DNA of 64,000 bases, from the IMG/VR virus record IMGVR_UViG_3300012953_003264, positions 17,032 to 81,031 of that record, one strand, 5' to 3'. Shown here in pieces: positions 30,658-38,993 of this stretch. Positions within the stretch are counted from its first letter, which is position 1, and every line of letters starts with the position of its first letter. Source of the DNA: a virus. Taxonomy: Duplodnaviria; Caudoviricetes. The notes beneath the pieces were generated by a model. The model did not search any database and was not told where the DNA came from. It saw only the letters and a list, made by a program, of their open reading frames with translations. A program made the position numbers and the translations under genes.

Positions 30658-31365
30658 ATGTCAGATAATGTAATTGTAAAACCAGGTGTAAGTGGTCAAT
30701 CAGTCCAATACGATACATCAAAAGTAAAATTAGAAACTGTAGCAGACGAACTTGCTTTATTAAGTTTAGGTGATTGGGAAGGCCTTAAAGTTAAAGTCAA
30801 TTCCGGTCAGTACAGAAAAGAAATTAAAGAATTAGAAAACGAATGGGTAGATTATCTACCTAGAACCGATAAAGTTAATAATAGAAAAGCTTTATCATTA
30901 ATGAATCTTCCAGGTAAAACTCATAAAGATAATCCTAGTTTAGCACAGGCATGTGTTGAAGCTGATAGATATATTAATGAAGCAGAGTTTAATACACCAA
31001 CTCTAGCATATGAAAAGTTACCTAGTTTACATCCTTTATTAGAATTATTTCCAACTTTAGGTAGAACATTTTTAGTTAAGTGTGGTGTTGGTGGATATTT
31101 TACACCTCATAGAGACCACCCATTTATGCCTAGAGATTCATTTAGAGTAGCAGTATTCTTACAAGATTGTCAACCAATGCAATTTGATTGGATACATGGT
31201 AATGAAAAAATGATGATTGAAGAAGGTAGACCATATTATGTTAATACAAAAAAAGTACATAGAACTATGAGTTGGGCAAAAAATAGTACACACTTAATTA
31301 TTAATGTACCTTTTACATCTGAAAATGTACAAACATTGATTGCAAATTTACAACATGCTCACTAG
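30658..31365 (+). CDS. Aspartyl/asparaginyl beta-hydroxylase-family 2OG-Fe(II) oxygenase
   Basis: GGYFTPHRD (HxD), FRVAVF, YYVNTKKVH, HLIINV. Confidence 0.75.
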   Translation: MSDNVIVKPGVSGQSVQYDTSKVKLETVADELALLSLGDWEGLKVKVNSGQYRKEIKELENEWVDYLPRTDKVNNRKALSLMNLPGKTHKDNPSLAQACVEADRYINEAEFNTPTLAYEKLPSLHPLLELFPTLGRTFLVKCGVGGYFTPHRDHPFMPRDSFRVAVFLQDCQPMQFDWIHGNEKMMIEEGRPYYVNTKKVHRTMSWAKNSTHLIINVPFTSENVQTLIANLQHAH

Positions 31366-32071
31366 ACCTCAAGAAGACAAAGACATAATATTAAACAATT
31401 TAGAAGATACATATTACATAGAAAACTTTGTATCTAAAGATGATATAAACGAGTTATGTGATATTTTTGATAATTCTTCTAATAAAGTTTATAAAGAAAC
31501 AGGACCTGTAACTTCTACAATAAAAGATTTTAAAATACCTGTTATGAGAAAAATAACAGATAAAATTTATAATCTATATCCTAATAGTGAGATTTACCAT
31601 GGTATGTTTTTCAATGTAAACTACCCCCATATTATACACAATGATGATAATAGAGATTGGCCTATAATTTATAAAGCATTTAATATACCTTTAAAATATG
31701 ATGGTGATGAAATGCCTTATTTGTGTTTCTTTGACCAAGTTTATCTTGACGGACCTAGTAAATTTTTTAATGGTGAAACAGATATGAAAACACATTATAA
31801 TACATGTGTCTATGACTACAAAGATGTATTAGGTAAAAATGATGAAGGTATAGAAAGTCATATCAAAGAAAAATATCTCACACATTTAAAAGATGAATGG
31901 TTAAAAGGTTTAAGTTTTAATTCAGCACATCATTGGAAACCAGGCAATACTATTGTATTTGATTCTTGTAGATTACATTGTGCTAGCGATTTTAGAACTA
32001 ATGTAAAAAGTAAATTAGGTATTAGTATATTTACGAAAGTGAGAGTAAATCCTCGGTACCATCCAAAGTAA
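31340..32071 (+). CDS. Putative 2OG-Fe(II) oxygenase (cupin fold)
   Basis: PHIIHNDD, AFNIPL, WKPGNTIVFDSCRLHCAS, KLGISIF. Confidence 0.6.
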   Translation: MQIYNMLTRPQEDKDIILNNLEDTYYIENFVSKDDINELCDIFDNSSNKVYKETGPVTSTIKDFKIPVMRKITDKIYNLYPNSEIYHGMFFNVNYPHIIHNDDNRDWPIIYKAFNIPLKYDGDEMPYLCFFDQVYLDGPSKFFNGETDMKTHYNTCVYDYKDVLGKNDEGIESHIKEKYLTHLKDEWLKGLSFNSAHHWKPGNTIVFDSCRLHCASDFRTNVKSKLGISIFTKVRVNPRYHPK

Positions 32072-32645
32072 ACATTAAAGCAATTCTAGGTGTTTTACTC
32101 ATATTAACTACTGCATGTTGGTAACCAATATTTAAGAAATTAGCAGTACCATCTTTTAAAATATAAGCTTCCATTTCATTATTTCTTTTAAATAAATTTA
32201 CAACATTATCACTACCATATATTGGTACGATACATCTTACTCCGTAGTTTACATCATAATCAACATGAAAAGGTATCATTTTACCAGGTGCTAATTTAGT
32301 TATTCTAACTCTACTAGCAGGTGCCTTACATTGAGTTACAATCTCCTCAAAATAACTGCCTGTATAATCTTCCGTAGGAACTTTATATAAATGTTCTTCT
32401 CTTCTTTTTAGTCTTTCTTTAATGCTTGTAGTATGTGGTAATACTTCACTAGGCGTTGTTAAATTAATTTGTTCAAAATTATCGTAAACACTTTTTACTA
32501 ATTCAGCGTGATTATCGCATAATCCAGGATTTGCTGATTCTACATCTAAAAACTTATCAGCTAACTTATCAGTTTCTTTTCTTAATTTAATTAAGTTAAT
32601 TGTAATAGGTAATGTAGCTACAGTAGGTAGTGTGTGTTTATTCAT
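32031..32645 (-). CDS. Aspartyl/asparaginyl beta-hydroxylase-family oxygenase (start revised to 32645)
   Basis: RVRITKLAPGKMIPFHVD, RCIVPI, FLNIGYQHAVVN, PRIALM; ATG 32645 overlaps upstream stop. Confidence 0.75.
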   Translation of the reverse strand: MNKHTLPTVATLPITINLIKLRKETDKLADKFLDVESANPGLCDNHAELVKSVYDNFEQINLTTPSEVLPHTTSIKERLKRREEHLYKVPTEDYTGSYFEEIVTQCKAPASRVRITKLAPGKMIPFHVDYDVNYGVRCIVPIYGSDNVVNLFKRNNEMEAYILKDGTANFLNIGYQHAVVNMSKTPRIALMFTLDGTEDLLSLS

Positions 32646-33285
32646 TAATTTTGCCATCATGTTTCCTTTCAACTATAAATTCAGATTCAGGCCGCCAATC
32701 ATAATCTCCTTGAAGTCTAATACTATAAACATATTGTAAAGTGTTATTAGTTTTAAACAAGAAATTCTTTTCTAATTGTAAACTATTGTACCATTCTCCT
32801 TTTGTATGTTCTTTAAAACTAGGTACAGTCATAACTTTTCTTCGTTGATATAATTTATTTATAGTAATATTATTAATATCATGTGTAATATAAAGTATCT
32901 TATATCCTTTCTCTCTCGCCCATTTGATTTGATGTTCTCCCATAATCAAACCACAATGGCTAAATCTATAGCCGTCTAGTATATGGTATCTACAAACTCT
33001 AACTGCAATGTCGGGGTCATTTGTATAATGTGATTTTTCAGCAGCTGATATTGATATCAATTTATCATACTTATTTAATTTTTCTCTAACTTTATTATTA
33101 GGTTTTAAATATGTTTCCCACTCTTCAACATATTTGTAACACATCCATGTTTCTATATTAGGGTCTTCGGGGTCGTACTTATCATAACTTAAACTATTGT
33201 TGCCTTCTTTAAAAGTTTGTTTTCTAAAAACTTCTATATTCGGCCAATGAATATTTGGATTATCTGAATATTTTTTTACTTCCAT
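32638..33285 (-). CDS. GNAT-like N-acyl/acetyltransferase
   Basis: RVCRYHILDGYRFSHCGLIM...QIKWAREKGYKILYIT...N...NKLY pattern. Confidence 0.5.
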   Translation of the reverse strand: MEVKKYSDNPNIHWPNIEVFRKQTFKEGNNSLSYDKYDPEDPNIETWMCYKYVEEWETYLKPNNKVREKLNKYDKLISISAAEKSHYTNDPDIAVRVCRYHILDGYRFSHCGLIMGEHQIKWAREKGYKILYITHDINNITINKLYQRRKVMTVPSFKEHTKGEWYNSLQLEKNFLFKTNNTLQYVYSIRLQGDYDWRPESEFIVERKHDGKINE

Positions 33286-33908
33286 TTTTCTAACCAGTTT
33301 TTATAAGATGATAACATTTCATCTTTACTCTTCCATTGTTTAGTTTCTTGTTTCTCAATAGTTACTAAATTACTTTTAAAACTATCTATATAATCAATTT
33401 CATTTCTTATAAAACCAATATTATCTTTATATAGATTATCCCAGCAATCATTTTTTACAATACTTTTTACAACATGACCACCCATTTTTTCTAATAGATG
33501 TTTAGTCATATCAAAGTGTCTACCTCCTGCCTTTTTTGAAGGTGTAAATGTAATTAGTATTATAGGTTTATATGAAAAACCATATGATGTGCCTAGATTA
33601 TTATTCATGTTTGATTTTACAACTAACCAATCCATAGCATTTTTAAATACTGCTGAATAATGACCTGTATGTTCAGGCACAGCAAAAACAAAAACATCTG
33701 TATCATGTAAATCTTTATCAAACTCTTTTATACCTTCATCAACTTTACCATCTACATCATTTGTATCAAGTAACTTCATGTTATAATCATTCATTGATTT
33801 ACATACATGAAAGTTAATATAATCATTCATCATTAATAAACCTCTAGTATTCATACTATCAGGATTATTACTAAAACTAAATGCTGAAATTTTACAAGAC
33901 ATAATCAA
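33276..33908 (-). CDS. NADPH-dependent FMN reductase (flavodoxin-like)
   Basis: DVFVFAVPEHTGHYSAVFKNAMDWL, KPIILITF, GG. Confidence 0.75.
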   Translation of the reverse strand: MIMSCKISAFSFSNNPDSMNTRGLLMMNDYINFHVCKSMNDYNMKLLDTNDVDGKVDEGIKEFDKDLHDTDVFVFAVPEHTGHYSAVFKNAMDWLVVKSNMNNNLGTSYGFSYKPIILITFTPSKKAGGRHFDMTKHLLEKMGGHVVKSIVKNDCWDNLYKDNIGFIRNEIDYIDSFKSNLVTIEKQETKQWKSKDEMLSSYKNWLEKWK

Positions 33909-34773
33909 AATGATTCCTCTCTTTATACCAACATGCCGACCTTAATAACTCTCTAGTTTGGTCTTTTGCTATCGTAGGCCTTCTATGAATAGTTGTTAAC
34001 TGGTCCATTAATAAAATATCACCAGGTTTCCATTTATGTTTATAAGTGTAGTTATCAGTTATAAAATCTTTATATATTTCATTATACAATTCTTTATGAG
34101 AAAAGTTTAACAAACCTACAAATTCTGTAATTTCATATGGTTGAAAAAATATACCTTCAATACCTAAAGGATGATTTGGTACTAGTTTATGTTTATCTAA
34201 TACACCTCGCCATTCTTTAAATCTTTTATCAATTAAATCAGCTCTACTTTTATTTCTATTTTGTTTTATACCATTCATAACTGTATCAGTATATTTTTTA
34301 TCCCAATCAGGCCTCCATGGTTGATTTATAGGAGTACCACCTGAATGATTTAATTTGGTGTATAAACTTTTATATAACTCTTTAGTTGTTGCACTTAATT
34401 TTCTCATGTAAGGAATACTAGTACATATCCATGTTTCAGTATCATATGTTATTGTTTTACCATACAAACCTATAACTTCTTGAGCGTCAGCGTGAGGTAC
34501 CAAATTACTGTGCCAATCTAATTCATCATCTGCAAATAGACCTTGATTTTCTCCGTCTACCTTTTCGTTTGTTACACGCCAAAAGTATTCACTATGTTCC
34601 TTATCTGTACACCAAATATCAGGACTTATATGATATCCAAATGCAAGATTCCATTTTGCAAATTCTTCAGGACTTGCACCACTATTTTCAATCACCAAAT
34701 ATCCATGTTCAGCAACCATTTTGTTTGCGTCAATAGGGTCTATTGCTTCTAATTTTTTATTTTGTAAAATCAT
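33892..34773 (-). CDS. TauD/TfdA-like dioxygenase with HSN motif
   Basis: HGYLVI, RVTNEK, GLFADDELDWHSN, HKWKPGDILLMDQLTTIHRR, RELLR. Confidence 0.75.
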   Translation of the reverse strand: MILQNKKLEAIDPIDANKMVAEHGYLVIENSGASPEEFAKWNLAFGYHISPDIWCTDKEHSEYFWRVTNEKVDGENQGLFADDELDWHSNLVPHADAQEVIGLYGKTITYDTETWICTSIPYMRKLSATTKELYKSLYTKLNHSGGTPINQPWRPDWDKKYTDTVMNGIKQNRNKSRADLIDKRFKEWRGVLDKHKLVPNHPLGIEGIFFQPYEITEFVGLLNFSHKELYNEIYKDFITDNYTYKHKWKPGDILLMDQLTTIHRRPTIAKDQTRELLRSACWYKERNHFDYVL

Positions 34774-35572
34774 CTTTTGTTATCACATAGTCCTTATATT
34801 TTGTTATACTTCTTTCTAACAATTCATGCCATTTAGGAATATTTAAAGTACCCATTGGCATTAATTGAATTCTTTTTGTAGGGTGGTAACCTGCGTCTGC
34901 GCCATGTTCATGTACCGTACCATCATATGCCATAGCATTTGTTTCTGGTGGTAACATAGGATATATTCTTGTTTGAGCATGGTCTTTTGTAAAATATAAA
35001 TGTTCTTTTTTCCAATCAGTAACTTTACTCCACCTAACTCTTACTTGACTAGGCTCTTGGTGTTTTAAATCTTCTCTTGCTTTGTCGTATTCGTCATAAT
35101 GAGGACCAACTCCGTGTGTATCTCTTCCTACAAATGCCAACCATCTAACATTATCATAAGGCATTGAATCAATAAATTTTATAATATCTGGAAACTCATC
35201 ATGTACAAAATCACACCACTCACCTTTTACATCTCCGTAATATGCACCATTTTTAAATAACATTAATGCTCTGTAATCGTGATTAATATATGTACTATGT
35301 CTTGAACTATTAATATCAGATTTATCCTTATCAAACCATACATGTTTCTTATCATTGATTGTAGTCCATCTTTTCCACATTAAATCTAAATCTAAATTAA
35401 CATATGGCACATCTAAAGGTGTCCAAACAACACCCTTATAACCATGATATTCACTTTTATAATTTACTTTATGGTGTTCATCATGTTCAGGATTATCTCT
35501 AGCAATATATTTTTCAATATTATCACCAGGCAATTTTTCATCTATGTCTTTAACTATTCTGTATCTTGCCAT
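34757..35572 (-). CDS. Putative 2OG-Fe(II) oxygenase
   Basis: GVGPHYDE (HxD), AYDGTVHEHG, KRIQL. Confidence 0.5.
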   Translation of the reverse strand: MARYRIVKDIDEKLPGDNIEKYIARDNPEHDEHHKVNYKSEYHGYKGVVWTPLDVPYVNLDLDLMWKRWTTINDKKHVWFDKDKSDINSSRHSTYINHDYRALMLFKNGAYYGDVKGEWCDFVHDEFPDIIKFIDSMPYDNVRWLAFVGRDTHGVGPHYDEYDKAREDLKHQEPSQVRVRWSKVTDWKKEHLYFTKDHAQTRIYPMLPPETNAMAYDGTVHEHGADAGYHPTKRIQLMPMGTLNIPKWHELLERSITKYKDYVITKDDFTK

Positions 35573-36192
35573 TTTTTATCCCAATCTTCATATAAATGAA
35601 GCCATTTACATATTGTTCTAACATCTGTATGTTCAGTAATTTTATTTTTCTTTTCGTATGGTTCTGATAATACTTTATACATATTTTCAGCACCTTCTTG
35701 TACCCACTCATAATTATCAGGAACACATTTTTCCCAACCGTGATTATATACTATATGTCCATGATGTATTACTTGAAAGTTTTTTAACAATCTTTTTATC
35801 TCGTCTGCATGTCTTCCACCATTCTTGTAACTAGGAGAGAATGTTACACTAAACATTGGCTTATGACTTATACTATAAGGTATATTTAAATCTTTATCGT
35901 AATTACTTTTTACAACTAACCAATCCATGGCATTTTTAAATGTACCACAATAACCTCCCATCATTTCCGCTATAAAAAATATATAAGCGTCAGCGTCAAT
36001 TAAAGCTTTGTCAAATTCTATTACACTATCAGGAACATTGCCGTCTGCCATATTAGTGTCTAATATTGGTATATTAAAATCACCTAGATTAACAACCTTA
36101 TGAAAAGGTATAAATTTATTTAAAAGTTTTATACCTCTTTGTTGCATAGACTTTGGCGAACAACTAAAATTAACTGCAACTATTTTATTCAT
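35554..36192 (-). CDS. NADPH-dependent FMN reductase (paralog of 33276-33908)
   Basis: DAYIFFIAEMMGGYCGTFKNAMDWL, KPMFSVTF. Confidence 0.75.
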   Translation of the reverse strand: MNKIVAVNFSCSPKSMQQRGIKLLNKFIPFHKVVNLGDFNIPILDTNMADGNVPDSVIEFDKALIDADAYIFFIAEMMGGYCGTFKNAMDWLVVKSNYDKDLNIPYSISHKPMFSVTFSPSYKNGGRHADEIKRLLKNFQVIHHGHIVYNHGWEKCVPDNYEWVQEGAENMYKVLSEPYEKKNKITEHTDVRTICKWLHLYEDWDKKWQDTE

Positions 36193-36803
36193 AGTAATTT
36201 AGCCTCTGCAATCAATCGTCTACCACAAAATATCTCTGCGTCAATAATATGTTCTTCCCAAATATCATAATCATCCATATCCTGTGTTATTGTTTTTAAT
36301 TCTAATCTATCATCATAATGTTTTTGTGTATGGTACGGTTCTTGTATGATAGCATTATTACACCAATAAAATTTCATGGTATCTTTAAACAATTTAAAAT
36401 GTTCTTTTTCATATAATAATACACCACTAAAAATTACAACATCAACTCTAAAACCAACTGATTCTAATTTATTCCAATCAGATACTTTATAATCTATATT
36501 TGGTTTATGGCACCATTGGTGCTGTGCAATTTTTATAGGTTCAGGTGAAGTATCAAATCCATAATAATTATAAAACTGATAATTCTTCTCATGTAATATT
36601 TCATTTACTGGACCGTGTCGGCAACCTACATCTACAATACCTTTATATCCGTTTTCAATAATAATGTCTGCCTGTTTTTCAAAGATAGGTTTTGCCTCTT
36701 TTGTATCAAGGTATGACATATCATTCATAGCATACTCTTTTCTCAAAGGCACTTTAAAATCAGATGGCAGTTTAGGCCACGGAATGGATTTTGTTGAAAT
36801 CAC
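36189..36803 (-). CDS. Class I SAM-dependent methyltransferase
   Basis: IVDVGCRHG, YYGFDTS, DVVIFSGVLLY. Confidence 0.75.
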   Translation of the reverse strand: MISTKSIPWPKLPSDFKVPLRKEYAMNDMSYLDTKEAKPIFEKQADIIIENGYKGIVDVGCRHGPVNEILHEKNYQFYNYYGFDTSPEPIKIAQHQWCHKPNIDYKVSDWNKLESVGFRVDVVIFSGVLLYEKEHFKLFKDTMKFYWCNNAIIQEPYHTQKHYDDRLELKTITQDMDDYDIWEEHIIDAEIFCGRRLIAEAKLL

Positions 36804-37590
36804 TTGCTATTCTCCATAATAATCTATTGTTGTCCATAACTGGTGTTCTTCGGTGTAAACTAGTAAATTGGTCCATTAAAAGTAAATCACCTTTTTTAAA
36901 TATATGATGATACTGATACTCTGATTTAAATATTAATTTTTTTAACTTATCAATCATTTCTTCATGGTCAATTAGTGTTTTTCCTTGCCATGCTTTAATT
37001 ATAAAATGATAAGGAAAATAAAAGTAAAATTTATCTATATGTGGGTGTTTGCCAACTAAAGGCCTAATACTACCTTTATTCTTGCTCATAAATTCTAACT
37101 CGGGGTCACCTTCTTCTAAATCATATATTGTATTGTTTCTAAATTTTAATCTTATCTTTATAGACTTCCAGTATTCTTGTTCATCTTCGGATAATTCATA
37201 AAAAGGTTTACTAGTATTACATACGCTTAAAGTTGTATTGATATCTTCTTTTACACAATATAAACTAATTAAAATTTTATCTATTAAGTGTCTTGAATTA
37301 CCATTTGAATGCCAACCTAATTCTGTATCACCAAACATACCAATTTTTTTGCCGTCTTTATCTCTTTTACCTGTAACTAAAAATATTTCTGGATATTCTT
37401 TAGGATTCATAAAAAGCATAGGTGTTTCACATTCACCAAATTTCTTTAATGTATCAACATATTCTCTTTCATTAAAATCTTGATTATACATTACTGCCAC
37501 GCCTTCTCGGTGTATGACATCTACTAATTGTTTTAGTTTTTTATTATCTAAAGTTTTTAATTGTGTTGTTGTTTTAAATGGTTCTATCAT
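36772..37590 (-). CDS. TauD/TfdA-like dioxygenase with HSN motif
   Basis: EGVAV, FLVTGK, GMFGDTELGWHSN, LYCV, HPH, FKKGDLLLMDQFTSLHRR, RLLWR. Confidence 0.8.
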   Translation of the reverse strand: MIEPFKTTTQLKTLDNKKLKQLVDVIHREGVAVMYNQDFNEREYVDTLKKFGECETPMLFMNPKEYPEIFLVTGKRDKDGKKIGMFGDTELGWHSNGNSRHLIDKILISLYCVKEDINTTLSVCNTSKPFYELSEDEQEYWKSIKIRLKFRNNTIYDLEEGDPELEFMSKNKGSIRPLVGKHPHIDKFYFYFPYHFIIKAWQGKTLIDHEEMIDKLKKLIFKSEYQYHHIFKKGDLLLMDQFTSLHRRTPVMDNNRLLWRIASDFNKIHSVA

Positions 37591-38362
37591 ATTCTTCCTT
37601 TATCAATTCGCATAAACTAATTCTATTAATATCTCCTTTTTTGAATTTATCATAGTCTTTATTATTTGTAGTTGCCAACCATACACTATCTGAAGGTATT
37701 AAGTCCAACTCATCACATAATTTTTCTTGTATAGGTTTTAATTCAGTATTTACATCATAAACATTAACTTGTTTTATTATCTCTTCACCTAATGCCATTG
37801 AATGATAATTATAATACTTTGCTGAGTTTATTAGCCTTTCTAATTGTTCATCTGGTTCTCTTGACCAATAATAACCTATTCTATAATTTCTTAAACCAAA
37901 ACATTTACTCATAGAGAAAAATACTTTTTCAACATTTTTTGATGGTTTGCCATATCTAACTTTCTTTGAACAAGAACCTACATGTGCTATATCTAATACA
38001 ACAGGAACATCTTGAGGTATATCTGTAATATTACCTTCAGCTGATGAAGGATTGGACATGTATATTATATCACCAGAATCACTTTCTGGCAACCATACAT
38101 AATCATCTTTATGTCTAAAAACTTTCCTATCTTCTTGCATGTACCAATAATTGATACCCTCTGTTATACCATTTGCAGGATAAACATATTTGAAATCTGA
38201 TAGGTCAATTACAGGTTTTAACCACTCTGTAATATTAGAAGAGAATCTTTTGACCTCTGTATGATTGTCTATTTTGAAACTATCACATATTGCTTTTACT
38301 TTGGCAATAGGAAATGTTCTAATAGCTAATGATTGTTTAAGTATTTTTTCTTTTTGGTTCAT
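37574..38362 (-). CDS. Compact fold-type I PLP-dependent enzyme (class I/II aminotransferase-like)
   Basis: NGITEG, SNPSS, VVLDIAH, FSMSKCFGLRNYRIGY (Schiff-base Lys motif). Confidence 0.75.
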   Translation of the reverse strand: MNQKEKILKQSLAIRTFPIAKVKAICDSFKIDNHTEVKRFSSNITEWLKPVIDLSDFKYVYPANGITEGINYWYMQEDRKVFRHKDDYVWLPESDSGDIIYMSNPSSAEGNITDIPQDVPVVLDIAHVGSCSKKVRYGKPSKNVEKVFFSMSKCFGLRNYRIGYYWSREPDEQLERLINSAKYYNYHSMALGEEIIKQVNVYDVNTELKPIQEKLCDELDLIPSDSVWLATTNNKDYDKFKKGDINRISLCELIKEEYDRTI

Positions 38363-38993
38363 AATCTTTAAATAATTTCTCTGCTATCCAACCACCTGTA
38401 TCAAACTTATGTAATCTAATTCTTTTAAAATTTTCGTGATGATTTTTATGATAGCCCTCACCTGCAATAAACATATTCAACCAAGGTACATTAGCACCTC
38501 CTGGTGTATTATGTCCGACTGTATTTAATAGTCCAAAACCTATCTTCGCAAAGACAAATGGTACGGCACAAAAGGCCACCCAAAAATATGGACTAATTAA
38601 AAAACTTATTATGTTAACACTTACTAGTATATGTAACCAGTATTTGTGGCAAAAAACTAATCTAGGATTTTTATATAAATCTCTAGCATATTTCATAGGT
38701 ATATTTTTTATATCCCATGTAGTAAATAAAACTTTCCAAAAACCCACATGTTTAGCTGCATGAGGATCCTCTGGTCCGTCTGAATGTTTATGGTGCATAC
38801 GGTGACTCGCAATCCAACCTATTGGTGTTCTAATACATGCTATCATTAACATTGCTAAACCAATTGTTTCAAACCATGCTGGAACTTTAAATTGGTTATG
38901 GCAATAATGCCTATGTAATAGTATGCTAGCACCAAAATGTGATATAATTTGAGACCACACAATGCCTATTAATATTGATATTGTTAACATCAT
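38337..38993 (-). CDS. Membrane fatty-acid desaturase (delta-9 acyl-lipid/acyl-CoA type)
   Basis: Three His boxes: LHRHYCH, SHRMHH, GEGYHKNHH; TM segments. Confidence 0.85.
   Translation of the reverse strand: MMLTISILIGIVWSQIISHFGASILLHRHYCHNQFKVPAWFETIGLAMLMIACIRTPIGWIASHRMHHKHSDGPEDPHAAKHVGFWKVLFTTWDIKNIPMKYARDLYKNPRLVFCHKYWLHILVSVNIISFLISPYFWVAFCAVPFVFAKIGFGLLNTVGHNTPGGANVPWLNMFIAGEGYHKNHHENFKRIRLHKFDTGGWIAEKLFKDYEPKRKNT

What the first reader, a model, noticed from the sequence alone, without database searches (positions are those of the whole stretch)
33892..37590. Two TauD-like dioxygenases both carry His-Ser-Asn instead of the His-X-Asp/Glu iron triad
Seen: ELDWHSN (codons CAC AGT AAT, 34504-34512) and ELGWHSN (CAT TCA AAT, 37303-37311). 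The distal His and 2OG-binding Arg region are retained (MDQ-x-T-x-x-HRR...R-x-L-x-R, with DQ for the usual DN). Different Ser/His codons in divergent paralogs argue for selection, not decay. Established: loss of the carboxylate ligand (to Ala/Gly) defines 2OG halogenases such as SyrB2, WelO5 and BesD; I know of no characterised Asn variant. Inference: a new subfamily with altered metal coordination and possibly non-hydroxylation chemistry (halogenation, desaturation, N-oxidation).
Basis: partly seen in the sequence, partly recalled or inferred. Interest (0 to 1): 0.78.

Follow-up and report, generated by a model that had tools for sequence, protein, structure and literature searches.

The report
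Phage TauD oxygenases with Asn iron ligand
Two phage genes belong to a large, undescribed branch of the TauD iron/2-oxoglutarate oxygenase family in which the usual iron-binding aspartate is mostly asparagine; because Asn and Asp swap repeatedly between close relatives in the same gene cassette, Asn probably fills the same role rather than marking a new chemistry.

Summary
Both minus-strand ORFs (33892-34773, 293 aa; 36772-37590, 272 aa) are clear TauD/TfdA-family proteins. Each has W-H-S-N exactly where TauD, RdpA and ScoE have W-H-x-D. Both keep the distal His, the 2OG-binding Thr and both Arg.

The Asn is selected, not decay. It is kept in 119/120 and 112/120 close homologs. It is also kept in 80/80 TauD genes in 58 related viral loci and in 11/11 subfamily members in Bdellovibrionota genomes. 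The canonical TauDs in those same bacterial genomes are 23/23 HxD.

An exhaustive profile search defines a "DQxxxxH(R/K)R" subfamily of about 120 clusters at 50% identity. The third triad position is N in 81, D in 28, A in 7, and G, H or C in the rest. N and D interchange at least 13-16 times on the tree. HxD forms are nested inside winA's own ortholog family, in the same cassette. No compensating carboxylate column exists.

Best reading: these are active Fe/2OG oxygenases with a 2-His plus Asn site, where Asn either binds iron or holds a water. They serve as tailoring enzymes in a mobile oxidative cassette of the pelagimyophage host-recognition island. I found no evidence for halogenation. 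No published HxN 2OG oxygenase turned up. The scan had flagged HxN TauDs in other genomes before.

The parts
33892..34773 (-). TauD-family paralog A (293 aa), triad H88-S-N90...H263, with 2OG-binding residues T114, R274 and R278
   Evidence: Pfam PF02668 E 2.3e-19; alignments A1 and A2
34504..34506 (-). Asn90 codon (AAT) of paralog A, at the position of the canonical Asp iron ligand
33985..33987 (-). Distal His263 codon of paralog A
   Evidence: 99% conserved column
36772..37590 (-). TauD-family paralog B (272 aa), triad H94-S-N96...H246, with T121, R256 and R260. The AlphaFold2 model has pLDDT 96.8.
   Evidence: Pfam E 1.2e-21; model; Foldseek top hits SfaA, ScoE, RdpA and TauD
37303..37305 (-). 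Asn96 codon (AAT) of paralog B, followed by Gly97
36853..36855 (-). Distal His246 codon of paralog B
   Evidence: invariant in A2
33276..33908 (-). FMN_red-family flavin reductase directly downstream of paralog A (overlapping ORFs)
   Evidence: Pfam PF03358 E 7.5e-16
34757..35572 (-). Conserved 271-aa ORF overlapping the start of paralog A. It is probably another DSBH oxygenase with a canonical H158-x-D160...H223.
   Evidence: alignment A4; weak Foldseek hits, all to 2OG oxygenases; its homolog also precedes the HxD ortholog in L009
35554..36192 (-). Second FMN_red-family flavin reductase
   Evidence: Pfam E 3.8e-13
36189..36803 (-). SAM-dependent methyltransferase directly downstream of paralog B
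   Evidence: Pfam Methyltransf_25/12/11; same order in phage Mosig
37574..38362 (-). 262-aa ORF upstream of paralog B. Its Mosig homolog is annotated 'putative aminotransferase', but the window copy has no Pfam hit.
38337..38993 (-). Membrane FA_desaturase-family di-iron enzyme
   Evidence: Pfam PF00487 E 2.2e-10; it co-occurs with HxN TauDs in phage and Bdellovibrionota loci
32031..32672 (-). Asp_Arg_Hydrox (AspH/LpxO-like) oxygenase at the end of the minus-strand arm
   Evidence: Pfam PF05118 E 1.8e-6; it recurs in all related cassettes examined

Best explanation
Both genes encode catalytically competent Fe(II)/2-oxoglutarate oxygenases of the TauD/TfdA fold. They belong to a large, uncharacterised subfamily whose signature is ...WHx[N>D>A]...DQxxxxH(R/K)R...RxLxR.

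In this subfamily the third facial position is usually Asn. I infer that the metal is held by the two His and bidentate 2OG. I also infer that the Asn side chain either binds iron through its amide oxygen (a neutral 2-His-1-amide triad) or positions a water at that site, as in AspH. Catalysis would then follow the normal route: O2 activation, 2OG decarboxylation, a ferryl intermediate and C-H abstraction.

Asn and Asp are isosteric and have replaced each other many times within the subfamily, including among orthologs in the same cassette. I therefore read Asn as a functionally near-equivalent, possibly tuning, ligand and not as a switch of reaction type.

The enzymes act as tailoring oxygenases in a mobile oxidative cassette. 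The cassette holds an AspH-like hydroxylase, a membrane desaturase-like di-iron enzyme, FMN reductases, a methyltransferase, a GNAT-like protein and radical SAM enzymes. It lies in the pelagimyophage host-recognition island and is also found in Bdellovibrionota genomes. The substrate is unknown; a lipid or another cell-envelope or virion-surface molecule is a guess.

Shown here: family membership, fold, residue conservation, N/D lability and cassette conservation. Inferred: metal binding by Asn, catalytic activity and substrate class.
For: (1) Family and fold. Pfam TauD matches. The A2 profile hits RdpA, TfdA and TauD at E 1e-42 to 1e-37 over the full length, with N on their Asp ligand. The AF2 model has pLDDT 96.8 and its top Foldseek hits are SfaA, ScoE, RdpA and TauD.

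(2) The rest of the catalytic apparatus is under strong constraint across 129 clusters at 50% identity. His1 is 98% conserved, His2 99%, the 2OG Thr 94%, and the two Arg 99% and 96%. A pseudoenzyme would be expected to lose these.

(3) Only isosteric or small residues occur at the site. Counts are N 85, D 32, A 7, H 2, G 1 and C 1, with no E or Q. This fits a sterically constrained first-sphere position.

(4) N<->D needs about 25 changes on the tree, of which >=13-16 are forced by supported branches. Within winA's ortholog family, HxD forms are nested inside HxN clades, with 3 forced changes. Locus L009 carries the HxD ortholog in the same gene context: the u271 homolog followed by TauD-A, with FMN_red, MT, FA_desaturase and TauD-B (HSN) nearby.

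(5) No HxD partner is required. All 80 scorable TauD genes in 58 viral loci are HxN, and 34 loci hold a single TauD gene. Phage Mosig has one TauD gene and it is HSN. The window's 81-kb record has only these two.

(6) Composition bias is not the cause. Canonical TauDs in the same Bdellovibrionota genomes are 23/23 HxD, against 11/11 HxN for the subfamily. The neighbouring ORF 34757-35572 keeps an invariant HxD.

(7) Precedents. AspH hydroxylates with 2 His plus a water and no carboxylate (PMC13168262). TauD H255Q keeps 81% activity, so an amide ligand can work in this very fold (PMC2767507). Methylphosphonate synthase uses a 2-His-1-Gln triad (cited in PMC11978286).
Against: No biochemical data exist for any member. 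In canonical enzymes the carboxylate is stringent. In P4H only Glu can replace Asp414 with retained activity, and TauD D101A is inactive unless rescued by formate (PMC2767507).

N/D interchange could also reflect repeated switching between two related activities rather than equivalence. The presence of HxA and HxG members shows that the site can be vacated altogether.
Confidence: 0.55

Rival explanations
1. Asn marks altered reactivity. With a neutral ligand the Fe site carries an extra positive charge and recruits an exogenous anion, such as seawater chloride or bromide, or a substrate carboxylate. The outcome would be halogenation or another non-hydroxylation reaction.
For: The same subfamily contains HxA and HxG members (8 of 129 clusters). 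One is P0305 (HSA), in a phage cassette. Loss of the carboxylate is the known route to anion binding in SyrB2, WelO5 and BesD (established knowledge). The marine setting is halide-rich.
Against: Asn is as bulky as Asp and leaves no vacant site unless it rotates away. AspH shows that lacking a carboxylate does not imply halogenation. N and D swap between orthologs in an unchanged gene context. No known 2OG halogenase belongs to the TauD/TfdA group among the solved relatives found.
Confidence: 0.15
2. The HxN proteins are non-catalytic. They would be 2OG-binding or ligand-binding scaffolds, or regulatory subunits of the cassette.
For: D->N at this position would be expected to weaken Fe binding. 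In P4H only Glu substitutes for the Asp. Multiple TauD paralogs per cassette could allow subfunctionalisation.
Against: Both His, the 2OG Thr and both Arg stay 94-99% conserved across a very divergent subfamily. Many cassettes have only HxN copies, or a single copy. HxD forms are nested within HxN clades, which is hard to reconcile with dead enzymes reviving repeatedly.
Confidence: 0.12
3. The Asn is converted to Asp after translation by deamidation, regenerating a canonical triad.
For: Gly follows the Asn in 37/76 HxN clusters but follows the Asp in only 6/32 HxD clusters. winB has N96-G97. Asn-Gly is the most deamidation-prone dipeptide (established chemistry).
Against: The winA family has N-L, N-M or N-V, which deamidate slowly. 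Deamidation through succinimide yields mostly isoAsp, which would distort the beta-strand. Nothing explains why encoding Asp directly would be avoided.
Confidence: 0.05

Closest known systems
TauD/TfdA/RdpA/AtsK group of Fe(II)/2OG dioxygenases (Pfam PF02668), with ScoE and SfaA as the nearest solved folds
   Same: The fold is shared (Foldseek TM 0.72-0.78). The profile matches over the full length (E 1e-42). The first His, distal His, 2OG-binding Thr and two Arg are all at the aligned positions.
   Different: The Asp ligand is Asn. The conserved WDN before the distal His is (M/x)DQ. The genes sit in a tailoring cassette rather than a sulfonate or herbicide catabolic context. The substrate is unknown.
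Human aspartate/asparagine beta-hydroxylase AspH (2-His Fe site with a water in place of the carboxylate)
   Same: It is a 2OG hydroxylase that works without a protein carboxylate ligand and does not halogenate (PMC13168262). AspH-family genes (Asp_Arg_Hydrox) are constant neighbours of the HxN TauDs.
   Different: AspH belongs to a different family and has Gly, not Asn, at the position. Its water is held by a second-sphere Asp.
2OG-dependent halogenases (SyrB2, WelO5, BesD): HxA/G
   Same: The carboxylate ligand is absent.
   Different: Those enzymes have a small residue that frees a coordination site for a halide. Here the residue is Asp-sized. They also belong to other 2OG subfamilies. Only the rare HxA and HxG members of this subfamily resemble them at the site.
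Methylphosphonate synthase MPnS (2-His-1-Gln triad), and the TauD H255Q variant
   Same: Both are precedents for a side-chain amide as a functional iron ligand in a non-heme Fe(II) oxygenase.
   Different: MPnS is a 2OG-independent cupin. H255Q replaces a His, not the Asp, and is an engineered variant.
Oxidative gene cluster of Pelagibacter phage Mosig EXVC030M (Mosig_00072-00081), within the pelagimyophage 'host recognition cluster'
   Same: winB is 77% identical to Mosig_00075. The neighbours are the same: FA_desaturase, a 262-aa ORF, FMN_red, a methylase, a GNAT-like protein and Asp_Arg_Hydrox, next to tail-fibre genes (PMC7029224).
   Different: Mosig has one TauD gene and the window has two. 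The published descriptions do not mention the HxN substitution.

Membership tests
TauD/TfdA family (PF02668) | Significant match to the family profile above the curated cut-off | tested here: met
   70.7 and 78.2 bits against a cut-off of 27
TauD/TfdA family (PF02668) | Double-stranded beta-helix fold superposable on TauD or RdpA | tested here: met
   AF2 model pLDDT 96.8; Foldseek prob 1.00 and TM 0.72-0.78 to SfaA, ScoE, RdpA and TauD
TauD/TfdA family (PF02668) | H-x-D/E...H facial triad | tested here: not met
   Both His are present, but the carboxylate position is Asn in both proteins. No conserved subfamily-specific Asp or Glu could substitute for it.
TauD/TfdA family (PF02668) | 2OG C5-carboxylate binding Arg (TauD R266) and Thr (TauD T126) | tested here: met
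   The Arg is 99% and the Thr 94% conserved at the aligned columns
TauD/TfdA family (PF02668) | Fe(II)- and 2OG-dependent substrate oxidation | not testable with these tools
   Needs expression and assay
2OG-dependent halogenases | Ala or Gly at the carboxylate position, leaving a halide coordination site | tested here: not met
   Asn in both window proteins. Only 8 of 129 subfamily clusters have A or G.
2OG-dependent halogenases | Halide binding and halogenated product | not testable with these tools
   Needs biochemistry
AspH-type 2-His 2OG hydroxylases | No protein ligand at the third site; a water is held there by a second-sphere residue | tested here: inconclusive

The most novel reading that the evidence does not exclude
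The 'DQ' TauD subfamily would be the first natural class of 2OG oxygenases with a 2-His-1-amide (Asn) iron site. The neutral ligand would give it a distinct reactivity, such as anion-assisted radical transfer or halogenation in seawater, or an altered redox potential that needs the co-encoded FMN reductases. Marine phages and predatory bacteria would use this to remodel cell-envelope or virion-surface molecules.
Probability: 0.15. Interest if true: 0.85.

Novelty: new variant of a known kind. Interest (0 to 1): 0.6.

Why it matters
[quoted passage not shown] The known natural exceptions are the HxA/G halogenases and 2-His AspH.

Here there is a large, abundant marine subfamily in which Asn is the majority state. 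Natural Asn/Asp pairs exist among orthologs. That gives enzymologists ready-made matched pairs for asking what the carboxylate actually contributes: metal affinity, redox tuning, or control of uncoupled turnover.

It also flags that automatic "taurine dioxygenase" annotations on these phage genes, often counted as sulfur-metabolism AMGs, are almost certainly wrong about function. The genes sit in a mobile tailoring cassette beside tail-fibre genes.

Tried and rejected
1. Compensating carboxylate. I compared every alignment column between HxN and HxD clusters. No column gains Asp or Glu in the HxN set; the largest shift is 0.44 against 0.19. The only conserved acidic residues (GD and xDQ) are shared with canonical TauDs.

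2. Obligate HxD partner paralog. Rejected. No HxD TauD lies within +/-10 kb in 58 viral loci. Mosig has a single HSN gene.

3. AT-bias artefact. Rejected. Canonical TauDs in the same bacterial genomes keep D, and the adjacent ORF keeps an invariant HxD.

4. Direct measurement of Asn-metal geometry. Model coordinates are not exposed to the script box.

5. The search for related loci with alignments A1 and A3 on genome contigs failed for lack of conserved stretches. A single-protein scan found one Bdellovibrionaceae MAG, which seeded the phylum scan.

6. The genome search 'relatives' is not available for a virus record.

7. Literature searches for HxN, 2-His-1-Asn or His-X-Asn in 2OG oxygenases returned nothing relevant. 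The one paper mentioning both pelagiphage and TauD was not pursued.

8. FMN reductase as an obligate TauD partner. It is often adjacent (window, L009, L011, L047) but absent within 8 kb in L005 and L007, so the link is not obligate. It may instead serve the desaturase-like di-iron enzyme.

9. My first regex-based triad calls picked up upstream WH/YH motifs and gave false 'HEQ' and 'HIS' states. I replaced them with hmmalign column calls.
Full report
OBSERVATION. ORF listing and direct reading confirm both motifs. The minus-strand ORF 33892-34773 (293 aa, here winA) reads ELDWHSN, with codons CAC AGT AAT at 34512-34504. The minus-strand ORF 36772-37590 (272 aa, winB) reads ELGWHSN, with codons CAT TCA AAT at 37311-37303. 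Both match Pfam TauD (PF02668) at E 2e-19 and 1e-21. They share 28% identity.

GENOME AND CONTEXT. winB is 77% identical to Mosig_00075 of Pelagibacter phage Mosig EXVC030M, a T4-like pelagimyophage. Mosig has the same neighbours: FA_desaturase, a 262-aa ORF, FMN reductase, a methylase, a GNAT-like protein and Asp_Arg_Hydrox. In Mosig these lie next to the tail-fibre genes. The region corresponds to the hypervariable "host recognition cluster" described for pelagimyophages (PMC7029224). That paper does not discuss the TauD genes.

In the window, the minus-strand arm runs in this order:
- 189-aa ORF
- FA_desaturase (38337-38993)
- 262-aa ORF
- TauD-B
- methyltransferase
- FMN_red
- 271-aa ORF
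- TauD-A
- FMN_red
- 215-aa GNAT-like ORF
- Asp_Arg_Hydrox (32031-32672)

The window's record is an 81-kb virus contig with only these two TauD genes.

IS THE ASN CONSERVED? Yes.
- Among the 120 best homologs of winB (64-89% identity), 119 read HSN.
- Among the 120 best homologs of winA, 112 read H(T/S/A/C)N and 8 read HxD.
- In 58 related IMG/VR loci with up to 10 kb of flank on each side, all 80 scorable TauD-family ORFs are HxN. There are 63 WHSN, 15 WHAN and 2 WHTN. None is HxD, and 34 loci hold a single TauD gene.
- Both AAT and AAC occur at the Asn codon. The neighbouring Ser alternates between TCN and AGY codons.

A LARGE SUBFAMILY. An exhaustive HMMER search of 1.84 billion cluster representatives, using a profile of both paralog families, gave 339 hits at E<1e-10. 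Among the 129 full-length representatives in the top 150, the third triad position is N in 85, D in 32, A in 7, H in 2, and G and C in 1 each. There is no E or Q. Meanwhile His1 is 98% conserved, His2 99%, the 2OG-binding Thr 94% and the two Arg 99% and 96%. The Q of the "DQ" motif is 91% conserved.

When the tree is rooted with canonical TauDs, four "DN"-type HxD representatives fall with the outgroup. That leaves a "DQ" subfamily of 120 clusters: N 81, D 28, A 7, H 2, G 1 and C 1.

The subfamily is not phage-only. P0263 (HSN) lies in a Bdellovibrionaceae MAG, beside an FA_desaturase gene and near MotAB, DsbD and a pseudouridine synthase gene. A scan of 301 Bdellovibrionota genomes found 6 genomes with subfamily members. 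All 11 members are HxN. The 23 scorable canonical TauD-family hits in the same phylum are all HxD with xDN.

Two bacterial loci (L044, L047) carry the same cassette as the phage. It comprises 2-3 HxN TauDs, Asp_Arg_Hydrox, FA_desaturase, radical SAM, FMN_red, a methyltransferase, a GNAT/SET protein and an aminotransferase-like gene.

N AND D INTERCHANGE. On a tree of 124 representatives, the HxN/HxD labels need about 25 changes. At least 13-16 of these are forced by well-supported branches. Several sister clusters differ only in N versus D. In a mixture-model tree of winA's own ortholog family, HxD forms are nested inside HxN clades, with three forced changes.

Locus L009 shows the HxD ortholog (VDWHTD) in the same context as winA. 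The homolog of the 271-aa ORF precedes it, and a TauD-B (HSN), FMN_red, a methyltransferase, FA_desaturase and a tail-fibre gene are nearby. L011 has three HxN TauDs and no HxD. L005 has an HSA TauD beside an HND one.

No alignment column acquires an acidic residue specifically in HxN clusters. The only conserved acidic residues, in GD and xDQ, are shared with canonical TauDs.

STRUCTURE. With a 124-sequence alignment, AlphaFold2 gives a confident model of winB (pLDDT 96.8, pTM 0.92). Foldseek places it with SfaA and ScoE (TM 0.77-0.78), RdpA/AAD-1, TauD and PlaO1. Placing N at the ligand position rests on the unambiguous WHx(D/N) alignment.

INTERPRETATION. Three features argue for a functional metal site in which Asn occupies the carboxylate's place:
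- The rest of the Fe/2OG apparatus is under strong purifying selection.
- The variable site is restricted to Asp-shaped or small residues.
- No partner HxD paralog is required.

Repeated N<->D exchange among orthologs in an unchanged cassette argues that the two residues do the same job here. Asn would either ligate iron through its amide oxygen or hold a water.

Precedents make this chemically reasonable. AspH hydroxylates with two His and a water, and does not halogenate (PMC13168262). TauD H255Q retains 81% activity (PMC2767507). Methylphosphonate synthase uses a 2-His-1-Gln triad (cited in PMC11978286).

Against this, canonical enzymes are intolerant of change at this site. In P4H only Glu substitutes for Asp414, and TauD D101A needs formate rescue. 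So the subfamily must have second-sphere adaptations that I could not identify.

The halogenase-type reading remains possible, mainly because HxA and HxG members exist. It has no positive support for the Asn forms. Deamidation of Asn-Gly is a minor possibility for winB-type proteins only.

PRIOR KNOWLEDGE. Full-text searches found no described HxN or 2-His-1-Asn 2OG oxygenase. Every solved relative whose alignment I saw has D at this position. Public annotations call these proteins "taurine dioxygenase". Earlier notes of this scan flagged HxN TauDs in other genomes, and a follow-up described the mobile oxidative cassette. My results agree with those notes. They add the size of the subfamily, the N/D lability, the bacterial occurrence and the internal HxD controls.

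VERDICT. It is a new variant of a known enzyme kind. Interest is moderate to high because the question is directly testable with natural N/D ortholog pairs.

Noticed in passing
window 34757-35572 (-): A 271-aa ORF with no Pfam hit overlaps the start of TauD-A. In 14 homologs it has an invariant H158-x-D160...H223. The AF2 model is only moderate (pLDDT 65), and its Foldseek hits are weak but all to DSBH 2OG oxygenases (EctD, PHD2). It is probably a further, canonical HxD oxygenase.
   Followed up: partly
L044 (G151:C34:146000-165900) and L047 (G187:C101:92000-110000): Bdellovibrionota genomes carry the same cassette as the phage island: 2-3 HxN TauDs, Asp_Arg_Hydrox, FA_desaturase, radical SAM, FMN_red, a methyltransferase and a GNAT/SET protein. 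This suggests exchange between marine phages and predatory bacteria. L047:10293-12411 also has four tandem ~176-aa ORFs of unknown function beside the radical SAM gene.
   Followed up: partly
L005:8001-8897 (protein P0305) and the clades P0305/P0331/P0370/P0378 and P0276/P0288/P0317: Members of the same subfamily have Ala at the carboxylate position, and there are single Gly, Cys and His variants. These halogenase-like or AspH-like sites lie in phage cassettes rich in radical SAM genes.
   Followed up: no
window 37300-37305 (-) and alignment A2: Gly follows the triad Asn in 37/76 HxN clusters (including winB, N96-G97) but follows the Asp in only 6/32 HxD clusters. Asn-Gly is the most deamidation-prone dipeptide.
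   Followed up: partly
alignment of 129 subfamily representatives: The middle residue of WHxN is Cys in 27 clusters (WHCN). This is unusual for a strand residue next to a redox-active metal site.
   Followed up: no
window 33276-33908 (-) and 35554-36192 (-): Two FMN_red-family reductases flank the TauD genes. FMN_red is frequent but not obligatory next to HxN TauDs elsewhere, being absent within 8 kb in L005 and L007. It may instead serve the FA_desaturase-like di-iron enzyme.
   Followed up: partly
window 30658-31365 (+) and 31340-32071 (+): Two ORFs without Pfam hits contain HxD-like motifs (PHRDHP, HNDDN). They may be further cupin or 2OG-type oxygenases on the plus-strand arm.
   Followed up: no
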